Source of the DNA: a plasmid
Length of the DNA stretch: 54,639 bases
Sequence record: NZ_CP035509.1
Direction: 5' to 3' (one strand)
Position numbers and translations under genes: made by a program. The notes under the pieces were generated by a model. It was not told the DNA's origin and made no database searches. It worked only from the letters and a program-made list of their open reading frames with translations. Below are positions 3,942 through 29,700 of the stretch, in pieces. The number at the start of each line of letters is the position of its first letter. The first letter of the stretch is position 1.

Positions 3942-4996
3942 GGCGTTGTTGCAAAACTCTGCGTGCCGGGGGATTCACGCAGCGGGGCTGGTAGAGTAAG
4001 CGTTTCGGCATGAGCAAGCCCGAAGCTGTCCGCTACCGCACGACGAACTGGAAGTCCTACAACAAGGCCCTGAAGCGGCGCGGGTCACTGCTGATCTGGC
4101 TGGACAAGGACATGGTCTGGCTGCCCCCCAAGGCGGGGCGTCCTGGTCGTCCGCCGGTGTTCTCTGATGCAGCGATCCAGTTCTGCCTGATGGTGAAGGT
4201 GCTCTTTGGCCTGCCACTCCGGCAAACAACCGGGATGGTGGCCTGCATTCTGAAGATGGCAGGGCTCGACTGGCCAGTGCCGGACTTCTCCACCCTGAGC
4301 CGCAGACAAGGATCTTTGGTGGTCGACATACCCCACCGCCGTGCAACGGGGCCGCTGAACCTGCTGGTCGACAGCACCGGGATCAAGTTCCTGGGCGACG
4401 GGGAATGGCTGGCGCGCAAGCACGGCACGCACCGCAGGCGCCAATACCGCAAGGTTCATCTGGCGATGGACACGGCCACCGGCGACATCCGAGCGGTGGA
4501 GTTCACCTCGAGCCGCGAAGGCGACAGCCCTGTGCTGCCGGATCTGCTGGATCAGATCCCGGCCGATGAACAGGTAGGCACCGTGACCGGCGACGGCGCC
4601 TTCGACACCCGGCGGTGTCACACCGCAATCGTCGATCGCGGCGGCACGGCCATCATCCCGATCCGCAAGAACGGACGCCTCTGGAAGGAGAACTGCCCTG
4701 CCGCCCGTGCCCGCAACGACATCCTTCGGGCGAGCAAACGCTTTGGGCGAGCAAACTGGAAGCACTGGTCCGGCTATCACGTCCGAAGTCGGATCGAGGC
4801 AAAAATGCGCTGCCTGAAGTCCTTCGGCGAGCGCATTGCCTCACGAGACCCCGACCGCCAGACCGCTGAGATCCACATCCGCATCGCCCTCATGAACCGC
4901 TTCAACACCCTCGGCACTGCCGAGACCGAACGCGTGGCCTAAGGCTGGTGGGGTAAGGGGACATCACGCTTCAACGCCGAGTTCTGCAACAATGCC
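3942..4996 (+). mobile_element. IS5 family (IS903-group-like) element, here called IS5-A, copy 1; 1055 bp
   Basis: Terminal inverted repeats GGCGTTGTTGCAAAACTC (left) and GGCATTGTTGCAGAACTC (right, reverse complement). Same length as copy 4 at 50118-51172. Confidence 0.8.
4010..4942 (+). CDS. IS5 family transposase (DDE)
   Basis: 310-aa protein starting MSKPEAVRYRTTNWKSYNKALKRRGSL, characteristic of the IS5 family. Identical to the copies at 8017-8721 (fragment) and 50172-51104. Confidence 0.9.
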   Translation: MSKPEAVRYRTTNWKSYNKALKRRGSLLIWLDKDMVWLPPKAGRPGRPPVFSDAAIQFCLMVKVLFGLPLRQTTGMVACILKMAGLDWPVPDFSTLSRRQGSLVVDIPHRRATGPLNLLVDSTGIKFLGDGEWLARKHGTHRRRQYRKVHLAMDTATGDIRAVEFTSSREGDSPVLPDLLDQIPADEQVGTVTGDGAFDTRRCHTAIVDRGGTAIIPIRKNGRLWKENCPAARARNDILRASKRFGRANWKHWSGYHVRSRIEAKMRCLKSFGERIASRDPDRQTAEIHIRIALMNRFNTLGTAETERVA

Positions 4997-5073
4997 CCTC
5001 GGCATCGAAGTGACCTGAAGTTCTCGTAGCTGATCGGGGGCTACTGCCCAGGCAGCGCTTGCTGATCCCTTTG

Positions 5074-5378
5074 GGCGTTGTTGCAAAACTCTGCGTGCCG
5101 GGGGATTCACGCAGCGGGGCTGGTAGAGTAAGCGTTTCGGCATGAGCAAGCCCGAAGCTGTCCGCTACCGCACGACGAACTGGAAGTCCTACAACAAGGC
5201 CCTGAAGCGGCGCGGGTCACTGCTGATCTGGCTGGACAAGGACATGGTCTGGCTGCCCCCCAAGGCGGGGCGTCCTGGTCGTCCGCCGGTGTTCTCTGAT
5301 GCAGCGATCCAGTTCTGCCTGATGGTGAAGGTGCTCTTTGGCCTGCCACTCCGGCAAACAACCGGGATGGTGGCCTGC
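5074..5378 (+). mobile_element. IS5-A copy 2, left part, interrupted by an IS21 element
   Basis: Identical to copy 1 from its left inverted repeat up to the codon for ...TGMVAC, where IS21 sequence begins. The 9-bp sequence ATCCCTTTG directly precedes it and recurs after the right part at 8776. Confidence 0.75.
5142..5378 (+). pseudogene. IS5-A transposase, N-terminal 79 codons (disrupted by IS21)
   Basis: Translation identical to that of 4010-4942 up to MVAC, then diverges into IS21 end sequence. Confidence 0.8.
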
Positions 5379-11881: not shown

Positions 11882-13260
11882 GGCTCTGATGATGTGACCG
11901 CCCCCCGACGGCATCTCTGTGCCAAGGTGGGTCTGCGATGATCCACAAAGGAGGACGGTCATGTCGGAGATTATCACGGTCGGGCTCGATCTGGCGAAGA
12001 ATGTGTTCCAGGTGCATGGGGCGGACGCCGCAGGCGGTGCGGTGCTACGGAAGAAGCTGCGGCGCACGCAGGTGCTGGGGTTCTTTGAGGCTTTGCCGCC
12101 TTGCGTCGTGGCGATGGAAGCCTGTGGTGGTGCACATTACTGGGGTCGAGAGATTGGCAAGCTTGGACATGAGGTCCGGCTGATCCCTCCGGCCTACGTG
12201 AAGCCCTTCGTCAAACGGCAGAAGAATGACGCCGCCGACGCCGAGGCGATTTGCGAAGCTGCACAGCGTCCGACGATGCGCTTCGTGTCGGTGAAGAGCG
12301 AAGAGACCCAAGGGGCGGCGATGGTGTTCCGCGTGCGCGAGTTACTGATCCGGCAGCGCACCCAGGCGATCAACGCCCTGCGCGGTCACCTTGCCGAGTT
12401 CGGGCAGGTTGTGCCGCAGGGCGCTGCCAATGCCTCGAAGCTGATCGCCATCGTCGAGGATCCAGAGAGCGGGTTGCCCGCCGAGGCGACAGCCACCCTG
12501 CAGGTTCTGATCGGATCCTTGGCGCACCTCGAGGCGCAGATCGGGAGGCTCGATGCCGAGATCTCACGCTGCGCCAAAGAGAACGAGGTCGCCCGACGGC
12601 TGATGACGGTGCCGGGCATCGGCCCGCTGATCGCGACGGCTATCGCGACACTTGCGCCGCCCCCCGAGACCTTCCGGAAGGCCCGGGATTTTGCAGCCTG
12701 GCTCGGGTTGGTGCCCAGGCAACACTCGACCGGTGGCAAGCAGCGCCTCGGAGCGACGACGAAGATGGGCGAGCGGTCTCTCAGGCGGCTGCTGATCATT
12801 GGCGCCAACAGCGTGATCATCAAGCGCCACGTCCATCGTGAAGCTCAACCCGGCACATGGCTGGGGAACATGCTGTCGCGCAAGCCGTCGATGCTGGTGC
12901 GTGTCGCGCTGGCGAACAAGATGGCGCGGATTGTCTGGGCTTTGATGGCCCGCGGTGGCGTATACCAGTCTCCGGCCGTGGCAGCGTAAGCAGCCGTCGG
13001 TCGCGAGGACGTCGGAGCGGAAGAGGGCAAGGAGCAGTTTGGCGCAACAGTCGTGAGACGGGATCGGGAGAACCAGTGTGCAACAGAGTGCCTTTGAGCA
13101 CGCGGCTTTGATCTGGACCCGACCTTCGAACACCATACGGGCCCGCGGCATGACCAAGGCCGCATCAGAGGCCGGACACATGTCAGCACCCGGTGACGCG
13201 CGGAAAGCAGCTCTGAAATTACCCCTTGCGCAAGGGGCGGTTACACATGTTGCACAAATC
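11882..13260 (+). mobile_element. IS110 family (IS1111-subgroup-like) element, copy A; 1379 bp
   Basis: Transposase gene preceded by a short 5' leader and followed by a 270-bp non-coding 3' tail. Subterminal inverted repeats GTGACCGCCCC and GGGGCGGTTACAC. Confidence 0.75.
11961..12989 (+). CDS. IS110 family transposase (DEDD)
   Basis: MSEIITVGLDLAKNVFQVHG… N-terminal DEDD domain. RBS AAAGGAGG. Four identical copies occur in the window. Confidence 0.9.
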   Translation: MSEIITVGLDLAKNVFQVHGADAAGGAVLRKKLRRTQVLGFFEALPPCVVAMEACGGAHYWGREIGKLGHEVRLIPPAYVKPFVKRQKNDAADAEAICEAAQRPTMRFVSVKSEETQGAAMVFRVRELLIRQRTQAINALRGHLAEFGQVVPQGAANASKLIAIVEDPESGLPAEATATLQVLIGSLAHLEAQIGRLDAEISRCAKENEVARRLMTVPGIGPLIATAIATLAPPPETFRKARDFAAWLGLVPRQHSTGGKQRLGATTKMGERSLRRLLIIGANSVIIKRHVHREAQPGTWLGNMLSRKPSMLVRVALANKMARIVWALMARGGVYQSPAVAA

Positions 13261-22082: not shown

Positions 22083-22683
22083 GAGATCAAGCCTCTGGGC
22101 GCATCCCTCGTGCCGACCGGTCTAGGGCTATCGCCCTGGACCTCCCTGCCCGAGTGACCGCGCTCTAGGCTCCGGCCGGCGGTGCCGGCCTGCGCCCCGA
22201 ACCTCGCTCGCCCCTTCGGGTGACGATCGCTTGCGCGGTGGCCGGGATCTCCCTGCAGGACGCATCACCAGCTCCGCCGTCCTGAAGATCGAGGGCAAGC
22301 CGCGCGTGCGGCGCGGCTCCGGTTGATCCGAGGGCCAGGCCGGGGGATCGACGCGGCCGAGGGCCGCGCTCACCCCCGCCCTGCGGTTTTTCCTTTTCGT
22401 GTTTCCGCCCAACAGACCTGCCCGAGCCGGTCAATCGGCAAGCGCCGCGCCCGTGGCGCGTCGGCTCCGGCGGGGGCCGTGTCCTCGCTGCGCTGCGGGC
22501 CGCACCACCCCCCGCCTCCGCCCGATGGACAGTCTCGGTCAGGCCCGTGGGTCGGGCTGTGCCCTCCCCACTCTGTTCCGCCGAATACATGCGTATTCGT
22601 CAGACCAGACCGGCGAGGCGCAGCCCATCGGCGGAAGAAGGCAACAGACCCGAACCGCCAGCCGCAACACGAAAGGAAAGACT
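22083..22683 (+). repeat. Copy 2 (uninterrupted) of the 600-bp leader repeat, upstream of the DUF932 gene
   Basis: Equals 17762-17900 plus 18364-18797. Palindrome CGAATACATGCGTATTCG at 22582-22599. Confidence 0.7.
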
Positions 22684-23550
22684 ATGGGTTATCAGAACTT
22701 CATGCGCGGAATGACCAACGGCGGCTCGATCTATGGTCGCGGCGAAGCGTTGACCGACGATGCCTTGCGCGCCCGCGTCCCGTCCATCTTCGCCGCCGAG
22801 GCCCACGAAAGCCGCAGCGCCCGCTTTGCCCCCGTGCCGACCATCGACGTGCTGAACAACCTTCGCGCCGAAGGCTTTGAGCCCTTCATGGCGCAGCAGG
22901 CCCGCACCCGCATTGAGGGCAAGGCCGAGTTTACCAAGCACATGCTGCGTCTGCGCCACCGTTCCATCACCAACGGCGACGGCGAGGCGTTCGAGATCAT
23001 CCTTGTGAACGCCAATGACGGCACCAGCGCCTATCAGATGCTTCCCGGCTTTTTCCGCTTTGTTTGCTCCAATGGCCTGATGGCGGGCGAAACCTTCAGC
23101 GAAGTGAAGGTGCGTCATTCGGGCAATGCCGTTGGTGAAGTCATCGAAGGCGCGTATCGCGTTCTGCAGGATGCCCCGGAGATTGCCGAGCGCGTGAAGG
23201 AATTTCGCGCGATCACCTTGCAGGACGAGGAACGCGCGATCCTGGCCGAAGCCGCGCACAGCCTGCGTTTCCCCGCCGCGCACGAGGACGGCGGCAAGGC
23301 CGCGCCCGTATCGGCCGAGAGCTTCATTCGCCCGCGCCGCACGGCTGACCGCGGGACAGATCTTTGGACCGCGTTCAACGTGGTGCAGGAAAACACGATC
23401 AAGGGCGGCATGACCGGATACGCCCGCGATGAAAACGGCCGCATGCGCCGCCGCAGCGTGCGCGAGGTTGCAGGCATCGACCAGAACCGCAACCTGAACC
23501 GCGCCTTGTGGATGCTCACGGAACGCATGGCCGAGCTGAAGGCCGCCTAA
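22684..23550 (+). CDS. DUF932 domain protein (plasmid/ICE-associated)
   Basis: MLPGFFRFVCSNGLM motif characteristic of DUF932. Confidence 0.8.
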   Translation: MGYQNFMRGMTNGGSIYGRGEALTDDALRARVPSIFAAEAHESRSARFAPVPTIDVLNNLRAEGFEPFMAQQARTRIEGKAEFTKHMLRLRHRSITNGDGEAFEIILVNANDGTSAYQMLPGFFRFVCSNGLMAGETFSEVKVRHSGNAVGEVIEGAYRVLQDAPEIAERVKEFRAITLQDEERAILAEAAHSLRFPAAHEDGGKAAPVSAESFIRPRRTADRGTDLWTAFNVVQENTIKGGMTGYARDENGRMRRRSVREVAGIDQNRNLNRALWMLTERMAELKAA

Positions 23551-23607
23551 GCGCGACAGGCAGGGGGCGAACCCCGCCCCCTGCCCCTGCAAACCGGAGG
23601 CGAAGCG

Positions 23608-23895
23608 ATGGACGATCTATTTCCCGACACGATCCCCAAGGGCGCGCATGGCGCGATCTGGTGGGCCGGTTGCTACGAATGCCGGAACTGGCATGGATAC
23701 TTTCAGAGCCGCGAAGGAGGGCGCGGCAACTGGCGCTTTCAGGTCCCGTGGTTTTCCACCGATGACGTGACATGCAGCGTCTATGCGATCACCGAGGCGG
23801 GCGAGGTCCGGACGCGCGATCTTATCCCGATTGATGACAAGGCCCGTATCAGCATCATGGGCCGCAAGTATGGCCGCGAGCATTGGGACCACTGA
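23608..23895 (+). CDS. Hypothetical protein (95 aa)
   Basis: GGAGG RBS. Four cysteines (…AGCYECRNWHG…DVTCSVY…). Followed by a terminator. Confidence 0.45.
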   Translation: MDDLFPDTIPKGAHGAIWWAGCYECRNWHGYFQSREGGRGNWRFQVPWFSTDDVTCSVYAITEAGEVRTRDLIPIDDKARISIMGRKYGREHWDH

Positions 23896-23924
23896 CCCCG
23901 CCCCTTTGCCCGTTCTATGCCCGA

Positions 23925-23946
23925 CCCGCCGCGAGGCGGGTTTTTG
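23925..23946 (+). terminator. Rho-independent terminator
   Basis: CCCGCC-GCGA-GGCGGG hairpin followed by TTTTTG. Confidence 0.45.
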
Positions 23947-24168
23947 CGTTCGGGCTGGTCATGCGATCGAGGTGTCATGTTGACGTGGCGCGTCCTGGAC
24001 CTTCCGGCCCACGACGCGCCACGTCCGGCGCTGCCCGCGCCGGGGCCGCTGCGCGGCACTTCCTATCGGTTTCCCACAAGGCTCCATCGACCTTCGCCGT
24101 TTGATAGGCCGTTCGATTACGCCATGACCGGCCATGCGGCCTTGGAAAACCGTGAAGCTTGTGGCTCC

Positions 24169-24810
24169 TCAGGCGGCCACAAGCTCCATCGACAGCGCAC
24201 CGTCCGGCAACGGACGTTGCAGCTCCTGCACCACGCTCCATGGTTCATGCAGCCATGCGTCCCATTCGTCGGGGCTGGTCAGGATCACCGGCATCGCCTT
24301 CGGATGCACCTTCGCCACTTCCGCATTCGGTTCGGTGGTCAGGAAGGCATAGAGATCATCAGTCGTTTCTCCATCCTTCAGCTTGCGGATCGAGGTCCAT
24401 TGCGGGACGTGCAGACCGGCAAAAAAGGCCGGCCGGTCCTCGGCAGGCGTGAACCACGCTTTTCCTTCGCCGTGAACCGGCTCCGAAAAGGCGGTCAACG
24501 GCACGAGGCAGCGGAACCGCGGATTGAGCCACCGCCGCCAGTGCGGCGATCCCGTGTTGCGGATATTGGTCACGCCCTTGTCGATGCCGTTCTTGGAATG
24601 GAATTGCTTGGGGCTTGGCAAGCCCCATCGCGCCATTGCCAGTTCCAGCCCGTCCCCTTCCTGTCCGTCATGGCGCAGAACGGGTGCAAGCTCGTTGGGA
24701 TAGATCCTTTCCTGTGAAGGCAGGTTTCCCAACCGATCCTCAACAGAAAAGCCCCGGAAGATCTCTCGCAGCGCATCTTGCGCCCGCGTGTGCCGGTAAA
24801 GATTGCACAT
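24169..24810 (-). CDS. SOS response-associated peptidase (SRAP/YedK-HMCES family)
   Basis: The domain begins MCNLYRHT… (Met-Cys N-terminus required by SRAP chemistry). The in-frame ORF extends a further 135 codons upstream to 25215; see findings. Confidence 0.55.
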   Translation of the reverse strand: MCNLYRHTRAQDALREIFRGFSVEDRLGNLPSQERIYPNELAPVLRHDGQEGDGLELAMARWGLPSPKQFHSKNGIDKGVTNIRNTGSPHWRRWLNPRFRCLVPLTAFSEPVHGEGKAWFTPAEDRPAFFAGLHVPQWTSIRKLKDGETTDDLYAFLTTEPNAEVAKVHPKAMPVILTSPDEWDAWLHEPWSVVQELQRPLPDGALSMELVAA

Positions 24811-25229
24811 GGCTGTTTCCGCCCCTTCCACGGCAGGCCGGTCCTTCGCACGCGGCCACGACTCTTTCGGCTTCGGGGTGGAAGTGCTGGACGACACAGC
24901 CGGTTCCGGCTTTGCCGGTTTCGCGTTCGGTTTGCGGGTCGGTTTTGCCACATCCGCCGCGCCTCTGGCGCGGCGGTCCTTCTCGGCCGTCAGCGCCTTG
25001 AGGTAGGTGTCCAGAACGCGGTCGGTCGCAGACGTGGCCCAAAGGGCGGCCGCCTGGTCCAGTTGCCCATCGGTGAACCCGTCCAGCCGTGGGCCGTCCC
25101 ACATCTTGGCGAGGATGCTCACAAGAGCTTCCTCGCGATCCTCCGGATGGCAGGCATGGGCGGCATACACGAGAGCCTTGGCCGCCGCGATACGACTGAC
25201 ATGAATACCCGTCATCGTCCCCCCCTGCC

Positions 25230-25967
25230 CTATCCGGCGTTTGTCTGGCGGTCCTTTTCAAAGAACAGGGCCAAGGCCCGCTCCGCGAGTGTGCGATTGA
25301 ACATCATCGGGTTCATGATGCCAGCAGGGTCCAAGCTGGACTTGGCGACATTCCATTCATTCCGCGAGATTATCTTGTTGGTGACGAACCGATCCTTTGT
25401 CGCGGCATACGGGGTGGCTGTCGGCAGCTTTCCGTCATTCCTCAGTGTCTGCCTGAGGTCGTCGAACGCCCGCTTGAAAATCATCCGAACGGCTTGTTGC
25501 GGGCCGATCTGTGCCGCCAAGCTGTCATAGGTTTGGCTTTGGCCCGTTTGAGGAAACGCCAGTCGGATCTTGAGGCTAATCGTATCTCCCGCGACCTGTT
25601 CGGGCACATCCGCGTTGGCAGAGGGTTTAGGCGGTGAGGAAGCTTCACCAGGCTTTGCAGCACTTTCGGACTTTAAGGTCTGAGTGAGCTTTCTGGACTT
25701 TGTGGTCTTTTCGGTATCTGCTGGCAGGCTCTTCTGTTCCGTTACGAGCGGTTCAGCAGGCGCTTCGGGCACATCGATCCTCGGTTCAGCAACCGCAACA
25801 TTCTCGACCGGTGGCGATGTGTCTGGCTTCGCGGGCACCGCATCGTGAACCATTTCAGCCCCCTCCGATGCCGATTGGTCGAGGCCGACTTTGCGTTTGA
25901 TGGCACGTTCACGGCGGTGCTGGTTGAAGATGGCCTTATGGTCGACTTTTGGAAGTTGAAATGCCAT
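25230..25967 (-). CDS. VirC2-like relaxosome accessory protein
   Basis: C-terminal region (…TYDSLAAQIGPQQAVRMIFKRAFDDLRQTL…ALALFFEKDRQTN) resembles Agrobacterium VirC2. Its ATG shares one nucleotide with the stop codon of the upstream ParA-like gene. Confidence 0.65.
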   Translation of the reverse strand: MAFQLPKVDHKAIFNQHRRERAIKRKVGLDQSASEGAEMVHDAVPAKPDTSPPVENVAVAEPRIDVPEAPAEPLVTEQKSLPADTEKTTKSRKLTQTLKSESAAKPGEASSPPKPSANADVPEQVAGDTISLKIRLAFPQTGQSQTYDSLAAQIGPQQAVRMIFKRAFDDLRQTLRNDGKLPTATPYAATKDRFVTNKIISRNEWNVAKSSLDPAGIMNPMMFNRTLAERALALFFEKDRQTNAG

Positions 25968-26686
25968 TATGCGGACTCCGCGACATGCCGTTCAGGGAAG
26001 ATGACGTCGAGTATGTCGCTTGAGATCCTGGACGCTTCCCGCACGGCGACTTCGATATGACCGGCCAGGATGCGCTTGTTTGGATCGGCGGCAAGCTCGC
26101 GATGGTAGAGGTGCAACATGCCAAGCGACATGATGTCTGCAAAAGCGTTGCGCTGCGGCAGACGTGCGGAAAGTTGCGGCATCTCCTTCAGCATCTCCAA
26201 GCTTTCCTTTTCTGCGGCCGACTGACGGCCCGTAGGCACGCGCGTCAACAGGAAGGCGGCCGGAACATCCTTTTCATTGGCTTCCATGAAGTTGAGCAGG
26301 AATTGGAATGTTGATATTGCACCGTCAATATCCATCGCCGTGAGAGACGTAGGAATAAGGACAAGATCAGCGTTTGCTATAATTGCCGTGTTCAATTCCG
26401 AATCGCCGCCACGCATATCGACAAGAGCTATATCGCAGCCATTTTGTTCGGCCTTTTCCATGTTCGGGATGAATACATCGAGTTCGGAGCCATCGTAAAT
26501 CTGGCAGCTTTCATCCCAAGTTCCAATCGCCCGCGCATTGGTCTGCCATGTCGAAAGTGGGTCATTCTGGTCGGCTTCAAAAAGAGCGACCTTCTTCCCA
26601 GCCTGCACCAGCCCCGATACGGACGACATGAGGGACGTGGATTTACCGGCTCCACCTTTGAATGAGGTAAACGCTACCAGCTTCAT
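25967..26686 (-). CDS. ParA/MinD-family ATPase, VirC1-like
   Basis: FKGGAGKST deviant Walker A motif. Near collinear with Agrobacterium VirC1 (…ALFEADQNDPLSTW…LVDMRGGDSELNTAIIA…). Confidence 0.85.
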   Translation of the reverse strand: MKLVAFTSFKGGAGKSTSLMSSVSGLVQAGKKVALFEADQNDPLSTWQTNARAIGTWDESCQIYDGSELDVFIPNMEKAEQNGCDIALVDMRGGDSELNTAIIANADLVLIPTSLTAMDIDGAISTFQFLLNFMEANEKDVPAAFLLTRVPTGRQSAAEKESLEMLKEMPQLSARLPQRNAFADIMSLGMLHLYHRELAADPNKRILAGHIEVAVREASRISSDILDVIFPERHVAESA

Positions 26687-27315
26687 GTCACTCTCTCCCT
26701 AGCCACGAACATTGCGTGTTCCTAAAAGTCCAGACGGGCCACTTGGTCCAAACGGCCCCAACAGGCCGAACAGCTATAGTGTGCCTTTAGTGCCTGAAAG
26801 ATGCAACAGGCCATTAGGTCCGGATAGTCCGGAAAGCTTTCTCAGGCTAAGCATACCTAAAGGACCAATCGTCCTTGATGGGCCGTTCGTCCTTCACGGT
26901 CCTGTCGTGCCTCTCAGGCCCTTCGGCCTTATTGTACCATACAGTCCATTCAGCCCTAATGTCCCGCATGGTGCCTGTTTGCCGCTTGGCAGGCTTTCAG
27001 TCCAGTCAGTCCAATTGTCCCGCTCCTTCTATGGTCCCTCGAATGAAGGAAGCGCACAGCGCGGCCTCCCAGGGCCGTCAGGAGGCTGCTTGCCCTCTAC
27101 CCACCTGAGGATGGCTGGAGGGCTCTCACAACTCCTCTCTGTCACTCTCAGCACATATCCGAAGGGTTCGGGTCGCCCTACGTGGCGACCCTCAAGTGGA
27201 GCTTCCTGCGTCAGCAAGTTTTATCCTAGGGGTGGGTTTAAGTAAGCGGCAGGATATATGCAAATGTAGAACATTGTGCTATAGGTATCGAAACCCACCC
27301 CCGAGGCCCCCGCCC
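26687..27315 (+). promoter_or_regulatory. Divergent intergenic region between virC1-like and mobC genes; candidate oriT/overdrive-like region and divergent promoters
   Basis: Positioned where oriT lies in virC/virD-type modules. Contains a strand-biased array of 13 GTCC pentamers (26712-27045) and an AT-richer stretch before mobC. Confidence 0.45.
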
Positions 27316-27792
27316 ATGAGCGACGACCAAAAGCAAAAAGAGCCGTGGAAGAAGCGCCGCATGATTGGCGGTCAGTGGACGGACCCCGCTGCGGTGGTGT
27401 CGAAGGCAACCGTCAACAAGACGATTTCGGTGCGTCTGACGGAGGCGGAGTTGGCTGACTTCGACGCTCAGATCGACGCTTTGGGGATCAATCGGAACCG
27501 TGCCCTGCGGATCATGGCCCGTCAGGTGGGCGGTTTTCTCGAAGAAGATGCGGCCTCCGTTGCCCATCTCGCCGACATTTCTCGCCAGCTTCGGGGCATC
27601 GCCGTCAACGTGAACCAGATCGCGAAGGCCGCGAACCGGACCACGGACCCGGATTTCATCGCCTTCATGGAGGAGCGGCAGCGTCTCGGGAAGGAGCTGT
27701 CGCGGGTCCAGTCCTACCTTCAGGCCCTTTTCGACATCGACAAGCGACGGTCTGACGGGGCCGAGCGGTTGAAGAAAGCGGCCCAGAAGTGA
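27316..27792 (+). CDS. mobC: MobC-family relaxosome accessory protein (ribbon-helix-helix; VirD1-like role)
   Basis: …LRGIAVNVNQIAKAANR… (the NxNQiAr motif of the MobC family). Its stop overlaps the relaxase GTG start (GTGA). Confidence 0.7.
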   Translation: MSDDQKQKEPWKKRRMIGGQWTDPAAVVSKATVNKTISVRLTEAELADFDAQIDALGINRNRALRIMARQVGGFLEEDAASVAHLADISRQLRGIAVNVNQIAKAANRTTDPDFIAFMEERQRLGKELSRVQSYLQALFDIDKRRSDGAERLKKAAQK

Positions 27793-28321
27793 GCATTCAC
27801 GTCCCCGATCTTCTGGCGAATGCCCGCAAAGCCCCGCGCTTCCTTTCGGCGCTGGATGCGGTCATGGGCGAAGATTGGGCCGAGGTGAAGCTTGGCCGTG
27901 GCGGCCGGATGCTGCAAATGCAGGTGGCCTTGAAGGCCGCGCATGAGCGGGACGTTGCGCCTGGCGGTGCTGCCTATTCCTCCCAGATACTGCCCGGCAT
28001 CAACCCGCAATCCATGGTCAAGATGGTCAGGGGCGGGGGTGCATCCACCGCGCGGGGACTGATGGCGCAGATGGATTATCTGAGTCGTCAGGACGATCTG
28101 CCCCTTCGTCGTTCGGAGGAATACATGGGCGTCGAGATCGACGCCGAGGAAGCCGTCGCCATGGCGCGCGGCTGGCAGATGCCCACGGAAGGCGGCAAGG
28201 CCGATCGCACGTCGCATTTCGTGGTCAGCTTTCCCATCGGGACAGATCCCGCCGCCGCCGAAGCTTCGGGACGGGCATGGGCGCAGGAAATGTTCGGCTC
28301 CGGTAATTTCGGGGGCGACCG
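27789..28321 (+). pseudogene. VirD2-like relaxase, N-terminal part (gene disrupted by composite B)
   Basis: …TSHFVVSFPIGTDPAAAEASGRAWAQEMFGSGNFGGDR aligns with VirD2 …IIVSFPAGTD…EMFGSGYGGG. It is broken at the 9-bp GGGCGACCG duplication. Confidence 0.8.
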
Positions 28322-29700
28322 GGCTCTGATGATGTGACCGCCCCCCGACGGCATCTCTGTGCCAAGGTGGGTCTGCGATGATCCACAAAGGAGGACGGTC
28401 ATGTCGGAGATTATCACGGTCGGGCTCGATCTGGCGAAGAATGTGTTCCAGGTGCATGGGGCGGACGCCGCAGGCGGTGCGGTGCTACGGAAGAAGCTGC
28501 GGCGCACGCAGGTGCTGGGGTTCTTTGAGGCTTTGCCGCCTTGCGTCGTGGCGATGGAAGCCTGTGGTGGTGCACATTACTGGGGTCGAGAGATTGGCAA
28601 GCTTGGACATGAGGTCCGGCTGATCCCTCCGGCCTACGTGAAGCCCTTCGTCAAACGGCAGAAGAATGACGCCGCCGACGCCGAGGCGATTTGCGAAGCT
28701 GCACAGCGTCCGACGATGCGCTTCGTGTCGGTGAAGAGCGAAGAGACCCAAGGGGCGGCGATGGTGTTCCGCGTGCGCGAGTTACTGATCCGGCAGCGCA
28801 CCCAGGCGATCAACGCCCTGCGCGGTCACCTTGCCGAGTTCGGGCAGGTTGTGCCGCAGGGCGCTGCCAATGCCTCGAAGCTGATCGCCATCGTCGAGGA
28901 TCCAGAGAGCGGGTTGCCCGCCGAGGCGACAGCCACCCTGCAGGTTCTGATCGGATCCTTGGCGCACCTCGAGGCGCAGATCGGGAGGCTCGATGCCGAG
29001 ATCTCACGCTGCGCCAAAGAGAACGAGGTCGCCCGACGGCTGATGACGGTGCCGGGCATCGGCCCGCTGATCGCGACGGCTATCGCGACACTTGCGCCGC
29101 CCCCCGAGACCTTCCGGAAGGCCCGGGATTTTGCAGCCTGGCTCGGGTTGGTGCCCAGGCAACACTCGACCGGTGGCAAGCAGCGCCTCGGAGCGACGAC
29201 GAAGATGGGCGAGCGGTCTCTCAGGCGGCTGCTGATCATTGGCGCCAACAGCGTGATCATCAAGCGCCACGTCCATCGTGAAGCTCAACCCGGCACATGG
29301 CTGGGGAACATGCTGTCGCGCAAGCCGTCGATGCTGGTGCGTGTCGCGCTGGCGAACAAGATGGCGCGGATTGTCTGGGCTTTGATGGCCCGCGGTGGCG
29401 TATACCAGTCTCCGGCCGTGGCAGCGTAAGCAGCCGTCGGTCGCGAGGACGTCGGAGCGGAAGAGGGCAAGGAGCAGTTTGGCGCAACAGTCGTGAGACG
29501 GGATCGGGAGAACCAGTGTGCAACAGAGTGCCTTTGAGCACGCGGCTTTGATCTGGACCCGACCTTCGAACACCATACGGGCCCGCGGCATGACCAAGGC
29601 CGCATCAGAGGCCGGACACATGTCAGCACCCGGTGACGCGCGGAAAGCAGCTCTGAAATTACCCCTTGCGCAAGGGGCGGTTACACATGTTGCACAAATC
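28322..29700 (+). mobile_element. IS110-like copy C
   Basis: Identical to 11882-13260. Confidence 0.75.
28401..29429 (+). CDS. IS110 family transposase
   Basis: Identical to the 11961-12989 product. Confidence 0.9.
   Translation: MSEIITVGLDLAKNVFQVHGADAAGGAVLRKKLRRTQVLGFFEALPPCVVAMEACGGAHYWGREIGKLGHEVRLIPPAYVKPFVKRQKNDAADAEAICEAAQRPTMRFVSVKSEETQGAAMVFRVRELLIRQRTQAINALRGHLAEFGQVVPQGAANASKLIAIVEDPESGLPAEATATLQVLIGSLAHLEAQIGRLDAEISRCAKENEVARRLMTVPGIGPLIATAIATLAPPPETFRKARDFAAWLGLVPRQHSTGGKQRLGATTKMGERSLRRLLIIGANSVIIKRHVHREAQPGTWLGNMLSRKPSMLVRVALANKMARIVWALMARGGVYQSPAVAA

What the first reader, a model, noticed from the sequence alone, without database searches (positions are those of the whole stretch)
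26712..27045. Strand-biased array of 13 GTCC pentamers with a roughly helical repeat in the virC1-mobC intergenic (candidate oriT/overdrive) region
Between the divergently transcribed VirC1-like ParA gene and mobC, the top strand carries 13 occurrences of GTCC in 334 bp. Examples are AAGTCCAG, TTGGTCCAA, TAGGTCCGG, TAGTCCGG, ATCGTCCTTG, TTCGTCCTTC, CGGTCCTG, CAGTCCATT, ATGTCCCGC, TCAGTCCAG, TCAGTCCAAT, TTGTCCCGC and TGGTCCCTC. By my estimate chance would give about two. Many are spaced 9-11 or about 20 bp apart, and related GGCC/GTGCC variants lie between them. The pattern is confined to one strand. In Agrobacterium, VirC1 binds the overdrive element next to the T-DNA border to recruit the relaxosome. 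An iteron-like array here could be the binding platform for the VirC1/VirC2 pair or for MobC, with the nick site nearby.
Basis: seen in the sequence. Interest (0 to 1): 0.65.

Follow-up and report, generated by a model that had tools for sequence, protein, structure and literature searches.

The report
Nine-base repeat array beside transfer origin
About 36 head-to-tail nine-base units lie between a plasmid's virC1/virC2 genes and its DNA-transfer nick site; they are most likely a centromere-like docking track for the VirC proteins, and related elements carry the same kind of track with different unit sequences.

Summary
There are 13 GTCC against 1 GGAC in 26712-27045, where shuffles give 2-3 and never more than 11. 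GTCC is only the visible part of a larger lattice of about 36 contiguous 9-bp units (26714-27037) with consensus nnWYRKnCC. The period is 9.0 bp, not the helical 10.5. The lattice starts 27 bp upstream of a VirC1-type ParA gene, which is followed by a VirC2-type ribbon-helix-helix (RHH) gene. It ends 212 bp before a T-DNA-border-like nick sequence (GGCAGGATATAT, 27248-27259) that precedes virD1 and an IS-disrupted relaxase. In 17 related loci, virC1 is preceded by the same kind of one-stranded array, but with element-specific 4-5 bp cores and periods of 8, 9, 16 or 17 bp. Two of these loci have no virD1 and no nick site. The 177-codon ORF over the array is not conserved and is a by-product of the lattice. 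Best reading: a centromere-like "tetramer-box" array, like parH of TP228, on which VirC2 and VirC1 assemble next to oriT. It probably serves as operator and overdrive-equivalent, and possibly as a partition site. Binding is inferred, not shown. I found no description of such arrays in the literature searched. I class it as a new variant of a known kind.

The parts
26714..26992 (+). Main block of the array: 31 contiguous 9-bp units in one register, consensus nnWYRKnCC. C is at unit position 8 in 26/31 units and CC at positions 8-9 in 23/31.
   Evidence: Folding and per-column relative entropy are 0.15, 0.10, 0.74, 0.42, 1.02, 1.13, 0.04, 0.90, 0.63. Autocorrelation is significant only at lags 9/18/27/36. 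The folded rows are shown.
26993..27037 (+). Distal block of the array: 5 further units whose GTCC cores (27000, 27009, 27017, 27034) are slipped by +1/+2 and then return to register.
   Evidence: Phases modulo 9; unit table.
25967..26686 (-). virC1-like gene, a small ParA-type ATPase of 239 aa with deviant Walker A KGGAGKS. It is the only such ATPase in the window. Its start codon is 27 bp from the first array unit.
   Evidence: Pfam VirC1 E=2.3e-76, covering 1-227 of 231; Walker A scan.
25230..25967 (-). virC2-like gene (245 aa). It has a C-terminal single-chain ribbon-helix-helix domain and is the proposed sequence-specific reader of the array.
   Evidence: Pfam VirC2 E=1.2e-6; phmmer to PDB 2RH3 VirC2 E=1e-7 over residues 11-120 of 121; alignment with homologues.
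27248..27259 (+). T-DNA-border-like core GGCAGGATATAT, the predicted oriT nick region. By homology with VirD2 borders, the nick is on the - strand between 27250 and 27249, so the array and virC operon would be transferred first.
   Evidence: The 12-mer is identical in 13 of 14 aligned oriT-type loci (L029 has GGTAGGATATAT) and in the pTi octopine right border. The nick position is inferred from established T-DNA border biochemistry.
27260..27279 (+). Proximal inverted repeat (GCAAATGT-aga-ACATTGTGC) directly next to the nick core.
   Evidence: The same position holds a hairpin in all 14 loci, with compensatory changes such as ACAAAAGT/ACTTTTGT, TCGAAAGT/ACTTTCGA and GTAATGT/ACATTAC.
27229..27301 (.). 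Distal 11-bp perfect inverted repeat GGGGTGGGTTT (27229-27239) / AAACCCACCCC (27291-27301) that brackets the nick region.
   Evidence: the repeat finder I5. Equivalent G-rich/C-rich arms are found in L026, L032 and L049.
27316..27792 (+). virD1/mobC-like relaxosome accessory gene (158 aa, RHH).
   Evidence: Pfam VirD1 E=6.7e-14 and MobC E=2.1e-9. The RHH strand is conserved across loci.
27789..28337 (+). N-terminal fragment of the VirD2-type relaxase gene, cut by a nested IS insertion. The C-terminal remainder is at 32029-33978 and is followed by the VirD4 coupling protein gene at 33990-36401.
   Evidence: tblastn of this fragment matches the relaxase N-termini of relatives at 36-60% identity. 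Pfam Relaxase lies on 32029-33978, T4SS-DNA_transf on 33990-36401, and IS110/DDE transposases in between.
26712..27245 (+). 177-codon ORF overlapping the array. I judge it not to be a gene.
   Evidence: There is no Pfam hit. The ORF is not conserved in the three other 9-bp-array loci. In this frame the unit reads [nWY][RKn][CCn], which cannot form stop codons. Most relatives have periods of 8, 16 or 17 bp, which a triplet code cannot produce.

Best explanation
The GTCC cluster is the visible part of a centromere-like array of short 'boxes' (core about RKnCC, one per 9 bp, about 36 units, all in one orientation). It is the cis-acting site of the adjacent virC1-virC2 operon.

Proposed mechanism (inferred):
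- Each VirC2 molecule has an RHH domain built from two unequal halves in one chain, so it is intrinsically asymmetric. Each molecule reads one box through its beta-ribbon.
- Neighbouring molecules bind cooperatively and coat about 320 bp. At 9 bp per unit on 10.5-bp DNA, they spiral around the helix, returning to the same face about every 7 units.
- The coated tract recruits the ParA-type ATPase VirC1.
- The tract begins 27 bp from the virC1 start codon, so it should also act as the operator of the virC promoter.
- It ends 212 bp from the border-like nick site, so the VirC1/VirC2 complex is placed to help VirD1 and the relaxase assemble at oriT. It could also deliver the nicked plasmid to the VirD4 coupling protein, as VirC1/VirC2 and overdrive do for T-DNA.
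- The same complex may also partition the plasmid.

In this copy the relaxase gene is broken by IS elements, so transfer would need a relaxase supplied in trans.

Shown here: the lattice, its uniqueness, its gene context, its recurrence with different cores in relatives, and its linkage to virC1/virC2 rather than to the nick site. Inferred: who binds it, the stoichiometry, and the functional output.
For: (1) The lattice is far beyond chance and unique in the window.
(2) The constraint is position-specific. Unit positions 5, 6, 8 and 9 carry 0.6-1.1 bits, while positions 1, 2 and 7 carry about 0. The register holds for 31 units with no net indel. This is the signature of selection on a contacted core plus fixed spacing, not of a decaying duplication.
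(3) The design is conserved while the sequence is not. 17 related loci have one-stranded arrays directly upstream of virC1, with cores such as ATCCG, GWCC, GCCGA, GTCGA, TGTC, CTGCA, GCTGC, GCCGT and GCCAT. Their periods are 9 bp (L024, L025, L029), 8 bp (L001-L006, L012, L026, L031, L050-L052), 16 bp (L032) or 17 bp (L049).
(4) Linkage. L050 and L051 carry virC1 plus a VirC2 homologue (43% identity, E=1e-29 to L026 VirC2) next to a replication gene. They have no virD1, relaxase or border sequence, yet they have an 8-bp array upstream of virC1. Arrays sit 0-80 bp from virC1 in most loci but at variable distance from the nick.
(5) VirC2-like is homologous to the solved VirC2 RHH domain, which is a duplicated RHH in one chain (PMC2848546).
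(6) Precedent. parH-OF of TP228 has 20 degenerate 4-bp ACTC boxes separated by 4-bp spacers upstream of parF (ParA) and parG (RHH), with one RHH dimer per box (PMC3130281).
(7) VirD1's RHH strand is conserved (mean pairwise identity 0.54), whereas the VirC2 C-terminal domain is not (0.27).
(8) VirC1 is the only ParA-type ATPase in this window and on a complete 56.8-kb relative plasmid.
(9) In Agrobacterium, VirC1 binds overdrive, acts with VirC2 at borders and recruits the substrate to the T4SS (PMC4285021; PMC4949242).
Against: No binding data exist for any of these elements. A Mantel test of array 4-mer similarity against identity of the VirC2 C-terminal domain was not significant (rho 0.09, p 0.22). 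Similarity tracked VirC1 identity, i.e. general relatedness, instead (rho 0.28, p 0.011). The VirC2-versus-VirC1 assignment therefore rests on fold and analogy. The older literature reports that VirC1 itself binds overdrive. Ti/Ri-type and Mesorhizobium virC1 loci (L007-L011), and also L034 and L035, have no array upstream of virC1. The array lies on the transferred side of the border-like repeat, the opposite side to overdrive in pTi. No sigma-70-like promoter was detected inside the array, so the operator role is only positional.
Confidence: 0.6

Rival explanations
1. The array is a partition centromere and operator of a type Ib-like par cassette only. In this reading virC1/virC2 act purely as ParA/CBP, and the array has no role in DNA transfer. 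Its position next to oriT would be modular coincidence.
For: L050 and L051 have the cassette plus array next to a replication gene without any transfer genes. VirC1 is the only ParA-type ATPase in the window and on the complete Acuticoccus plasmid. Arrays are anchored to virC1, not to the nick.
Against: In 14 of the array-bearing loci plus this window, the cassette sits directly against a border-like nick and virD1-relaxase-T4CP, always in the same orientation. The Agrobacterium homologues act in transfer.
Confidence: 0.15
2. The array is the binding platform for the relaxosome accessory protein VirD1/MobC or for the relaxase, as the first reader offered as an alternative.
For: VirD1/MobC-type proteins are RHH DNA binders that act at oriT (PMC5675868). 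The array is within about 210 bp of the nick.
Against: Arrays occur without virD1, relaxase or nick in L050 and L051. The VirD1 RHH strand (KTxSV[RK]LTEAELAEFDA) is nearly the same in elements whose array cores are unrelated, and it matches the invariant nick region instead. The distance from array to nick is variable.
Confidence: 0.08
3. An element-encoded or host protein other than VirC1, VirC2 or VirD1 reads the array, for example a nucleoid-associated protein or a regulator encoded elsewhere on the plasmid.
For: The covariation test with VirC2 was inconclusive.
Against: The cores are element-specific, which argues against a host factor. Only virC1 and virC2 co-occur with the arrays in all loci sampled.
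Confidence: 0.1
4. The periodicity comes from a protein-coding triplet repeat. ORF 26712-27245 would encode (G/S/R/V)-Pro-x repeats, resembling a decayed collagen-like protein.
For: The ORF is open for 177 codons and reads x-P-x triplets across the array.
Against: There is no Pfam hit. Source annotations call no gene over the arrays of relatives. The frame is not open in L025 or L029, and in L024 it is open only on the other strand. Most relatives have periods of 8, 16 or 17 bp. There is no general 3-bp periodicity. In that frame the consensus [nWY][RKn][CCn] cannot form stops, so openness is automatic.
Confidence: 0.02
5. The array is a neutral, decaying minisatellite or a replication-iteron set with no VirC-related function.
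For: Tandem duplications arise easily. TRF detects only one short 18-bp-period piece.
Against: The information content is position-specific and the register is kept over 279 bp. Arrays recur independently at the same place in at least 17 elements with different cores. The units are 8-9 bp with 4-5 bp cores, unlike 17-22 bp replication iterons. The rep gene (repC, 36409-37812) is far away.
Confidence: 0.05

Closest known systems
parH-OF centromere/operator of plasmid TP228 (ParF ParA-type ATPase + ParG RHH protein)
   Same: It is an array of degenerate 4-bp boxes with fixed short spacers. TP228 has 20 ACTC boxes with 4-bp spacers, giving an 8-bp period (PMC3130281). The array lies immediately upstream of an operon that encodes a small Walker-type ParA followed by an RHH DNA-binding protein. 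The boxes are mostly direct repeats. The array doubles as operator and centromere.
   Different: The unit here is 9 bp with a GC-rich core (RKnCC) and non-AT spacers. There are about 36 units rather than 20. The cassette abuts an oriT nick site. No sequence homology between VirC2 and ParG was tested. Partition activity is unknown.
Agrobacterium Ti-plasmid overdrive with VirC1/VirC2
   Same: The proteins are homologous: Pfam VirC1 and VirC2, and PDB 2RH3. The nick core GGCAGGATATAT is homologous. In Agrobacterium, VirC1 binds overdrive next to the border, and VirC1 with VirC2 stimulates relaxosome assembly and polar delivery.
   Different: Overdrive is a single element of about 24 bp with a TGTTTGTT core, lying on the non-transferred side of the right border. 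In pTi only a weak 8-bp phasing is seen (z=2.5). Here there is no such core. The site is a lattice of about 320 bp on the transferred side, anchored to the virC1 start. Ti-type virC1 genes have no upstream array.
R388 stbDRs with StbA/StbB
   Same: There are direct repeats around the promoter of an operon adjacent to oriT. They are bound by the operon's DNA-binding protein. A ParA-like ATPase (StbB) is needed for conjugation, and the system balances stability against transfer (PMC3098194).
   Different: stbDRs are two sets of five 9-bp repeats spaced by 2 bp, giving an 11-bp period on one helical face. From my own knowledge, StbA is not an RHH protein. The gene order and proteins are unrelated to VirC1/VirC2.
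Other RHH tandem-site systems (omega protein heptad arrays of pSM19035; MetJ 8-bp metboxes). These are recalled from knowledge and were not tested here.
   Same: There is one RHH unit per 7-8 bp repeat. Binding is cooperative and non-helical in phase, so the proteins spiral around the DNA.
   Different: The proteins, repeat lengths and biological roles are different.

Membership tests
Type Ib-like partition cassette with upstream repeat centromere (parFGH type) | Small ParA-type ATPase with a deviant Walker A and no N-terminal DNA-binding domain | tested here: met
   239 aa, motif KGGAGKS. Pfam VirC1/CbiA covers 1-227 and there is no extra domain.
Type Ib-like partition cassette with upstream repeat centromere (parFGH type) | Ribbon-helix-helix centromere-binding protein encoded directly downstream of the ATPase gene | tested here: met
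   VirC2-like gene at 25230-25967. Pfam VirC2 E=1.2e-6 and PDB 2RH3 E=1e-7. It is a single-chain duplicated RHH rather than a homodimer.
Type Ib-like partition cassette with upstream repeat centromere (parFGH type) | Array of short repeated boxes with fixed spacing immediately upstream of the operon | tested here: met
   About 36 units of 9 bp starting 27 bp from the virC1 start. The same arrangement is found in 17 relatives.
Type Ib-like partition cassette with upstream repeat centromere (parFGH type) | The DNA-binding protein coats the array, and the cassette stabilises an unstable replicon | not testable with these tools
   This needs EMSA or footprinting and a plasmid-loss assay.
Agrobacterium overdrive | Consensus sequence with a TGTTTGTT core | tested here: not met
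   No match within 1 mismatch anywhere in 26000-28000.
Agrobacterium overdrive | Position next to the border repeat on the non-transferred side (3' of TGGCAGGATATAT...) | tested here: not met
   In pTi (L033) overdrive lies 3' of the border. Here the array lies 5' of GGCAGGATATAT and 212 bp away.
Agrobacterium overdrive | Bound by VirC1/VirC2 and enhances nicking or transfer | not testable with these tools
   Only homology of the proteins is shown.
oriT of VirD2/MOBP-type relaxases (context of the array) | Conserved nick-region sequence with an adjacent inverted repeat, next to accessory and relaxase genes | tested here: met
   GGCAGGATATAT is identical to the T-DNA border core. The proximal hairpin shows compensatory changes across 14 loci. 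virD1 and the relaxase are adjacent, but the relaxase here is IS-disrupted.
Replication iterons | Repeats of 17-22 bp at about 22-bp spacing, next to a rep gene or AT-rich origin | tested here: not met
   The unit is 9 bp. The nearest rep gene (repC) is at 36409-37812.
Collagen-like / triplet-repeat protein gene | Conserved open reading frame with G-x-y or x-P-x repeats in homologues | tested here: not met
   There is no Pfam hit. The frame is not conserved in L024, L025 or L029. Other relatives have 8/16/17-bp periods.

The most novel reading that the evidence does not exclude
The virC1-virC2 cassette with its box array is a dual-use segrosome. One protein-coated DNA tract would serve both as the plasmid's only centromere for vertical inheritance and as the handle by which the nicked plasmid is taken to the type IV coupling protein. 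The 24-bp overdrive and the array-less VirC1/VirC2 of Ti plasmids would then be a reduced descendant of this ancestral state. The element-specific cores would act as address labels that keep co-resident elements from cross-talking.
Probability: 0.3. Interest if true: 0.75.

Novelty: new variant of a known kind. Interest (0 to 1): 0.6.

Why it matters
VirC1 is the textbook case of a ParA-type ATPase recruited to conjugation. A 2024 review still describes it as known from a single study (PMC11407121). What marks the DNA cargo for it is defined only as the short overdrive element of Ti plasmids.

This work shows that a whole clade of VirC1/VirC2 cassettes carries long, phased, element-specific box arrays. 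The cassettes occur in Hyphomicrobiales, Rhodobacterales and some gammaproteobacterial MAGs. That gives a concrete, testable cis-site. It links VirC/overdrive to type Ib centromeres of the parH kind. It also offers natural specificity variants (periods of 8, 9, 16 and 17 bp, and at least 10 different cores) for studying how RHH proteins read DNA and how partition and transfer are coupled.

Practically, these arrays together with the invariant GGCAGGATATAT and its hairpin could be used to annotate oriT regions that current tools miss. The complete Acuticoccus plasmid, which has a full T4SS, a relaxase and this oriT, is typed 'non-mobilizable'.

Tried and rejected
- Helical phasing: there is no signal at 10-11 bp.
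- Coding repeat or collagen-like ORF: rejected.
- Near and distant BLAST of the region against PLSDB plasmids: only a 114-bp virD1 hit and nothing for the intergenic DNA. The array sequence itself is not conserved, and relatives had to be found through VirC1.
- Tandem Repeats Finder sees only one 40-bp piece with an 18-bp period, and the repeat finder sees only fragments. The array is too degenerate outside its core for these tools.
- Sigma-70 promoter and terminator scan: nothing found.
- Rfam at E<=1 over 26000-28000: nothing found.
- Overdrive core search: absent. Eight-bp phasing of the pTi overdrive flank is only z=2.5, which is inconclusive.
- Mantel test of array similarity against VirC2-domain identity: not significant.
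- Secondary GKCC-N5-GKCC clusters elsewhere in the window, as possible extra operators: none above background.
- L026, L027 and L028 were checked for micro-variation in the array, but the three are identical.
- The metagenome scan added only two loci, neither with an array.
- Lu et al. 2009 and Atmakuri et al. 2007 could not be read in the held library. Their content is cited through secondary papers or marked as my own knowledge.
Full report
**1. The observation**

It also has 7 GGCC and 4 GTGCC (0 GGCAC). Mononucleotide shuffles give 1.9 GTCC and dinucleotide-preserving shuffles give 3.1. None of 20,000 shuffles of either kind reached 13. The window-wide density would give 1.5.

The spacing claim needs correcting. 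The gaps are multiples of 9 +/- 1. The Rayleigh periodogram peaks at 9.02 bp and is flat at 10-11 bp. A motif-free test, base-identity autocorrelation, exceeds z=3 only at lags 9, 18, 27 and 36.

**2. What is actually there**

Folding the sequence in rows of nine shows that GTCC is the tip of a lattice.
- From 26714 there are 31 consecutive 9-bp units in one register, running to 26992.
- Five more units follow, slipping by +1/+2 and returning to register by 27037.
- The unit consensus is nnWYRKnCC.
- Per-column relative entropies are 0.15, 0.10, 0.74, 0.42, 1.02, 1.13, 0.04, 0.90 and 0.63 bits.
- C occupies position 8 in 26 of 31 units.
- Folded information is 0.569 bits per column against 0.065+/-0.019 in shuffles (z=26.5), and 0.03-0.13 at any other period from 5 to 13.
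- The next-best 279-bp stretch of the 54.6-kb window reaches 0.292, and that comes from ordinary codon periodicity.
- No second cluster exists in the window.

Three positions are unconstrained, four are strongly constrained, and there is no net indel over 279 bp. That pattern indicates selection on a contacted core and a fixed spacing, not a decaying duplication.

**3. Context**

Left of the array, on the - strand, lie three genes.
- A VirC1-type ParA ATPase at 25967-26686 (Pfam E=2e-76).
- A VirC2-type gene at 25230-25967 (Pfam E=1e-6; PDB 2RH3 VirC2 E=1e-7 over nearly the whole crystallised domain).
- An SRAP gene.

The first unit starts 27 bp from the virC1 start codon.

To the right, 212 bp beyond the last unit, is GGCAGGATATAT (27248-27259). 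This is identical to the core of the T-DNA border repeat, as checked in pTi NC_002377. It is followed by a hairpin and bracketed by an 11-bp perfect inverted repeat.

Next come several further genes.
- A VirD1/MobC gene at 27316-27792.
- A VirD2-type relaxase gene split by nested IS110-type and DDE-type insertions. The N-terminal part is at 27789-28337 and the C-terminal part at 32029-33978.
- A VirD4 coupling protein gene.
- A solo repC.

By analogy with T-DNA borders, the nick is on the bottom strand after ...ATCCTG (established knowledge). That places it on the - strand between 27250 and 27249. The array and the virC operon would then be the leading region.

**4. Relatives**

The intergenic DNA has no BLAST-detectable relative in PLSDB. 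I therefore collected loci through VirC1 homologues.

Fourteen distinct loci share the module T4CP <- relaxase <- virD1 <- [nick] [array] -> virC1 -> virC2. They come from Aurantimonas, Amaricoccus, Albimonas, an Acuticoccus plasmid, gammaproteobacterial MAGs and metagenomes. They share the same border-like 12-mer; only L029 differs, by one base. Their proximal hairpin keeps pairing through compensatory changes.

In every one of them the virC1-proximal part of the gap is a one-stranded array of short boxes, but the boxes differ.

| Period | Locus | Core |
|---|---|---|
| 9 bp | L024 | ATCCG |
| 9 bp | L025 | GWCC |
| 9 bp | L029 | KCC-C |
| 8 bp | L001 | GCCGA |
| 8 bp | L002 | GTCGA |
| 8 bp | L003 | TGTC |
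| 8 bp | L005 | CTGCA |
| 8 bp | L026 | GCTGC |
| 8 bp | L031 | GCCGT |
| 16 bp | L032 | GCCAT |
| 17 bp | L049 (about 30 units) | two-part unit |

L004 and L052 also show significant 8-bp periodicity, but no single clear core.

Autocorrelation is significant only at multiples of the stated period in nearly every locus (L004 and L050 show a few additional lags). The three loci with 9-bp arrays are the closest VirC1 relatives of the window, at 53-60% identity. L006 and L012 also have 8-bp arrays.

Ti/Ri-type and Mesorhizobium loci (L007-L011), and also L034 and L035, do not have arrays.

**5. The coding rival**

ORF 26712-27245 is open across the array and reads x-Pro-x triplets. Several points count against it being a gene.
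- It has no Pfam hit.
- No gene is called over the arrays in the source annotations or in RefSeq.
- The frame is closed in L025 and L029, and in L024 it is open only on the other strand.
- Periods of 8, 16 and 17 bp cannot come from codons.
- In that frame each unit reads [nWY][RKn][CCn], which cannot make a stop codon, so the open frame is a by-product of the lattice.

**6. Who reads the array**

Two loci are decisive for linkage. L050 and L051 carry virC1 and a VirC2 homologue (43% identity, E=1e-29 to the VirC2 of L026). These sit beside a replication-initiator gene, with no virD1, relaxase or border sequence. Yet they have an 8-bp array (GTYGCATT) directly upstream of virC1. That core resembles the GCTGCATT of their relative L026. 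The array therefore belongs to the virC1-virC2 cassette, not to the relaxosome core.

The RHH strand of VirD1 is almost the same in all elements (mean pairwise identity 0.54), matching the invariant nick region. The VirC2 C-terminal domain is far more variable (0.27), including both predicted ribbon strands.

VirC1 has no domain beyond the ATPase. VirC2 is a duplicated RHH in one chain (PMC2848546). It is therefore an asymmetric reader, which would explain why the boxes are direct repeats on one strand. That last step is my inference.

A Mantel test of array similarity against VirC2-domain identity across 14 loci was not significant (rho 0.09, p 0.22). Similarity followed VirC1 identity, meaning overall relatedness (rho 0.28, p 0.011). 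The assignment to VirC2 rather than VirC1 is therefore inferred from fold and precedent. It is not demonstrated.

**7. How it probably works**

The closest mechanistic precedent is parH-OF of TP228. It has 20 degenerate ACTC boxes with 4-bp spacers upstream of parF (ParA) and parG (RHH). One RHH dimer binds per box, coating is cooperative, and the site has both centromere and operator functions (PMC3130281).

By analogy, VirC2 would coat the roughly 320-bp tract at one molecule per 9 bp. VirC1-ATP would be recruited to the coated tract. The complex would repress the virC promoter and provide the large nucleoprotein handle next to the nick.

In Agrobacterium, VirC1 binds overdrive. Together with VirC2 it stimulates relaxosome assembly at borders and recruits the substrate to the polar T4SS (PMC4285021; PMC4949242). 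The same outputs are the natural expectation here.

A partition role is also plausible. VirC1 is the only KGGxGK[ST] ATPase in this window. It is also the only one on the complete 56.8-kb conjugative Acuticoccus plasmid. In L050 and L051 the cassette sits beside a replication gene.

R388 StbA/stbDR/StbB is a functional analogue. It has repeats at an oriT-adjacent promoter and a ParA-like ATPase needed for conjugation (PMC3098194). Another recent example of par proteins binding an oriT region is NAH7 (PMC12421886).

**8. Comparison with overdrive**

This array is not a member of overdrive.
- No TGTTTGTT core occurs within one mismatch nearby.
- The array is on the other side of the border-like repeat from overdrive in pTi.
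- The pTi overdrive flank shows only a weak 8-bp phase, TGTGTATG TTTGTTTG ATTGTTTC, with z=2.5.

The idea that overdrive is a vestige of such arrays is attractive but unproven.

**9. Novelty and verdict**

Full-text searches found no description of phased arrays upstream of virC1, or of border-like oriTs with such arrays. The library does not hold most subscription journals, so this is absence in what I could search.

I class the feature as a new variant of a known kind. It is a type Ib-style box centromere/operator attached to the VirC1/VirC2 pair at an oriT. It has an unusual 9-bp unit and about 36 units here.

My confidence levels are as follows.
- About 0.9 that the array is a selected DNA-level element.
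- About 0.75 that it is the cis-site of the VirC cassette.
- About 0.55-0.6 that VirC2 is the direct reader and that the site acts in transfer.

Noticed in passing
window 27789-33978: The VirD2-type relaxase gene is split by a nested insertion. The N-terminal part is at 27789-28337. The insertion holds an IS110-family transposase (28359-29429), a DDE_Tnp_1 transposase (29746-30678) and a second IS110 copy on the - strand (30986-32056). The relaxase remainder is at 32029-33978. The same two transposase ORFs recur elsewhere in the window: the 356-aa ORF at 11919, 28359, 30986 and 44006, and the 310-aa ORF at 4010, 13297, 29746 and 50172. The element is therefore IS-ridden and probably not self-transmissible.
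   Followed up: partly
window 36409-37812: A solo RepC-type replication gene lies directly downstream of virD4. No repA or repB is present in the window, and VirC1 is the only ParA-type ATPase in the 54.6 kb. The complete Acuticoccus plasmid NZ_CP133481 likewise has a solo repC plus an RPA-type rep gene and no other ParA.
   Followed up: partly
window 27170-27191: A GC-rich hairpin GGGTCGCC-ctacgt-GGCGACCC sits in the 212-bp spacer between the array and the nick. L026 and L049 have GC-rich hairpins in the equivalent spacer, and L026's is followed by a T-run. Its function is unknown. It could be a terminator, an accessory-protein site or a leading-strand element.
   Followed up: no
window 26687-26695 and 27141-27149: The 9-mer GTCACTCTC occurs twice. 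One copy lies over the virC1 ribosome-binding region and one lies between the array and the nick. CTCT occurs 8 times on the + strand of the gap and never on the other strand. This was not analysed.
   Followed up: no
L003 4001-5230 (Gammaproteobacteria MAG NORP348): The virC1 reading frame runs on for 410 codons. The VirC2-like tblastn match (4913-5215) is in the same frame. This suggests a natural VirC1-VirC2 fusion, or else an assembly error.
   Followed up: no
L049 / NZ_CP133481.1 28538-29444: The 907-bp gap holding a 17-bp-period array of about 30 units and the border-like oriT has no annotated feature in the PLSDB gene table for this RefSeq record. PLSDB/MOB-suite types this plasmid as 'non-mobilizable', although it encodes a full VirB-type T4SS, VirD4, a relaxase and VirD1.
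   Followed up: partly
L029 vs L030 (same VirC1 protein, different samples): The virC1 gene is identical (0/741 nt). The 214 bp upstream differ by a 13-bp indel and 4 substitutions. Two of the substitutions fall at spacer positions and one changes a unit end from CT to CC. The array region therefore evolves faster than the gene.
   Followed up: partly
VirC2 homologues, N-termini (window 25230-25967 and loci): All VirC2-like proteins share a short N-terminal motif, M-(P/G/A)-(I/L/F)-(R/K)-(K/R)-P, followed by a variable Pro/Ala-rich linker. It resembles the flexible ParA-stimulating tails of centromere-binding proteins. That comparison is my inference and was not tested.
   Followed up: no
window 22399-25215: DUF932 (22399-23550) and SRAP (24169-25215) genes follow virC2 on the predicted leading side. 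An SRAP gene also lies a few genes downstream of virC2 in L024, and ArdC-type genes occur in L029, L031 and L049. This looks like a typical leading-region gene set.
   Followed up: no
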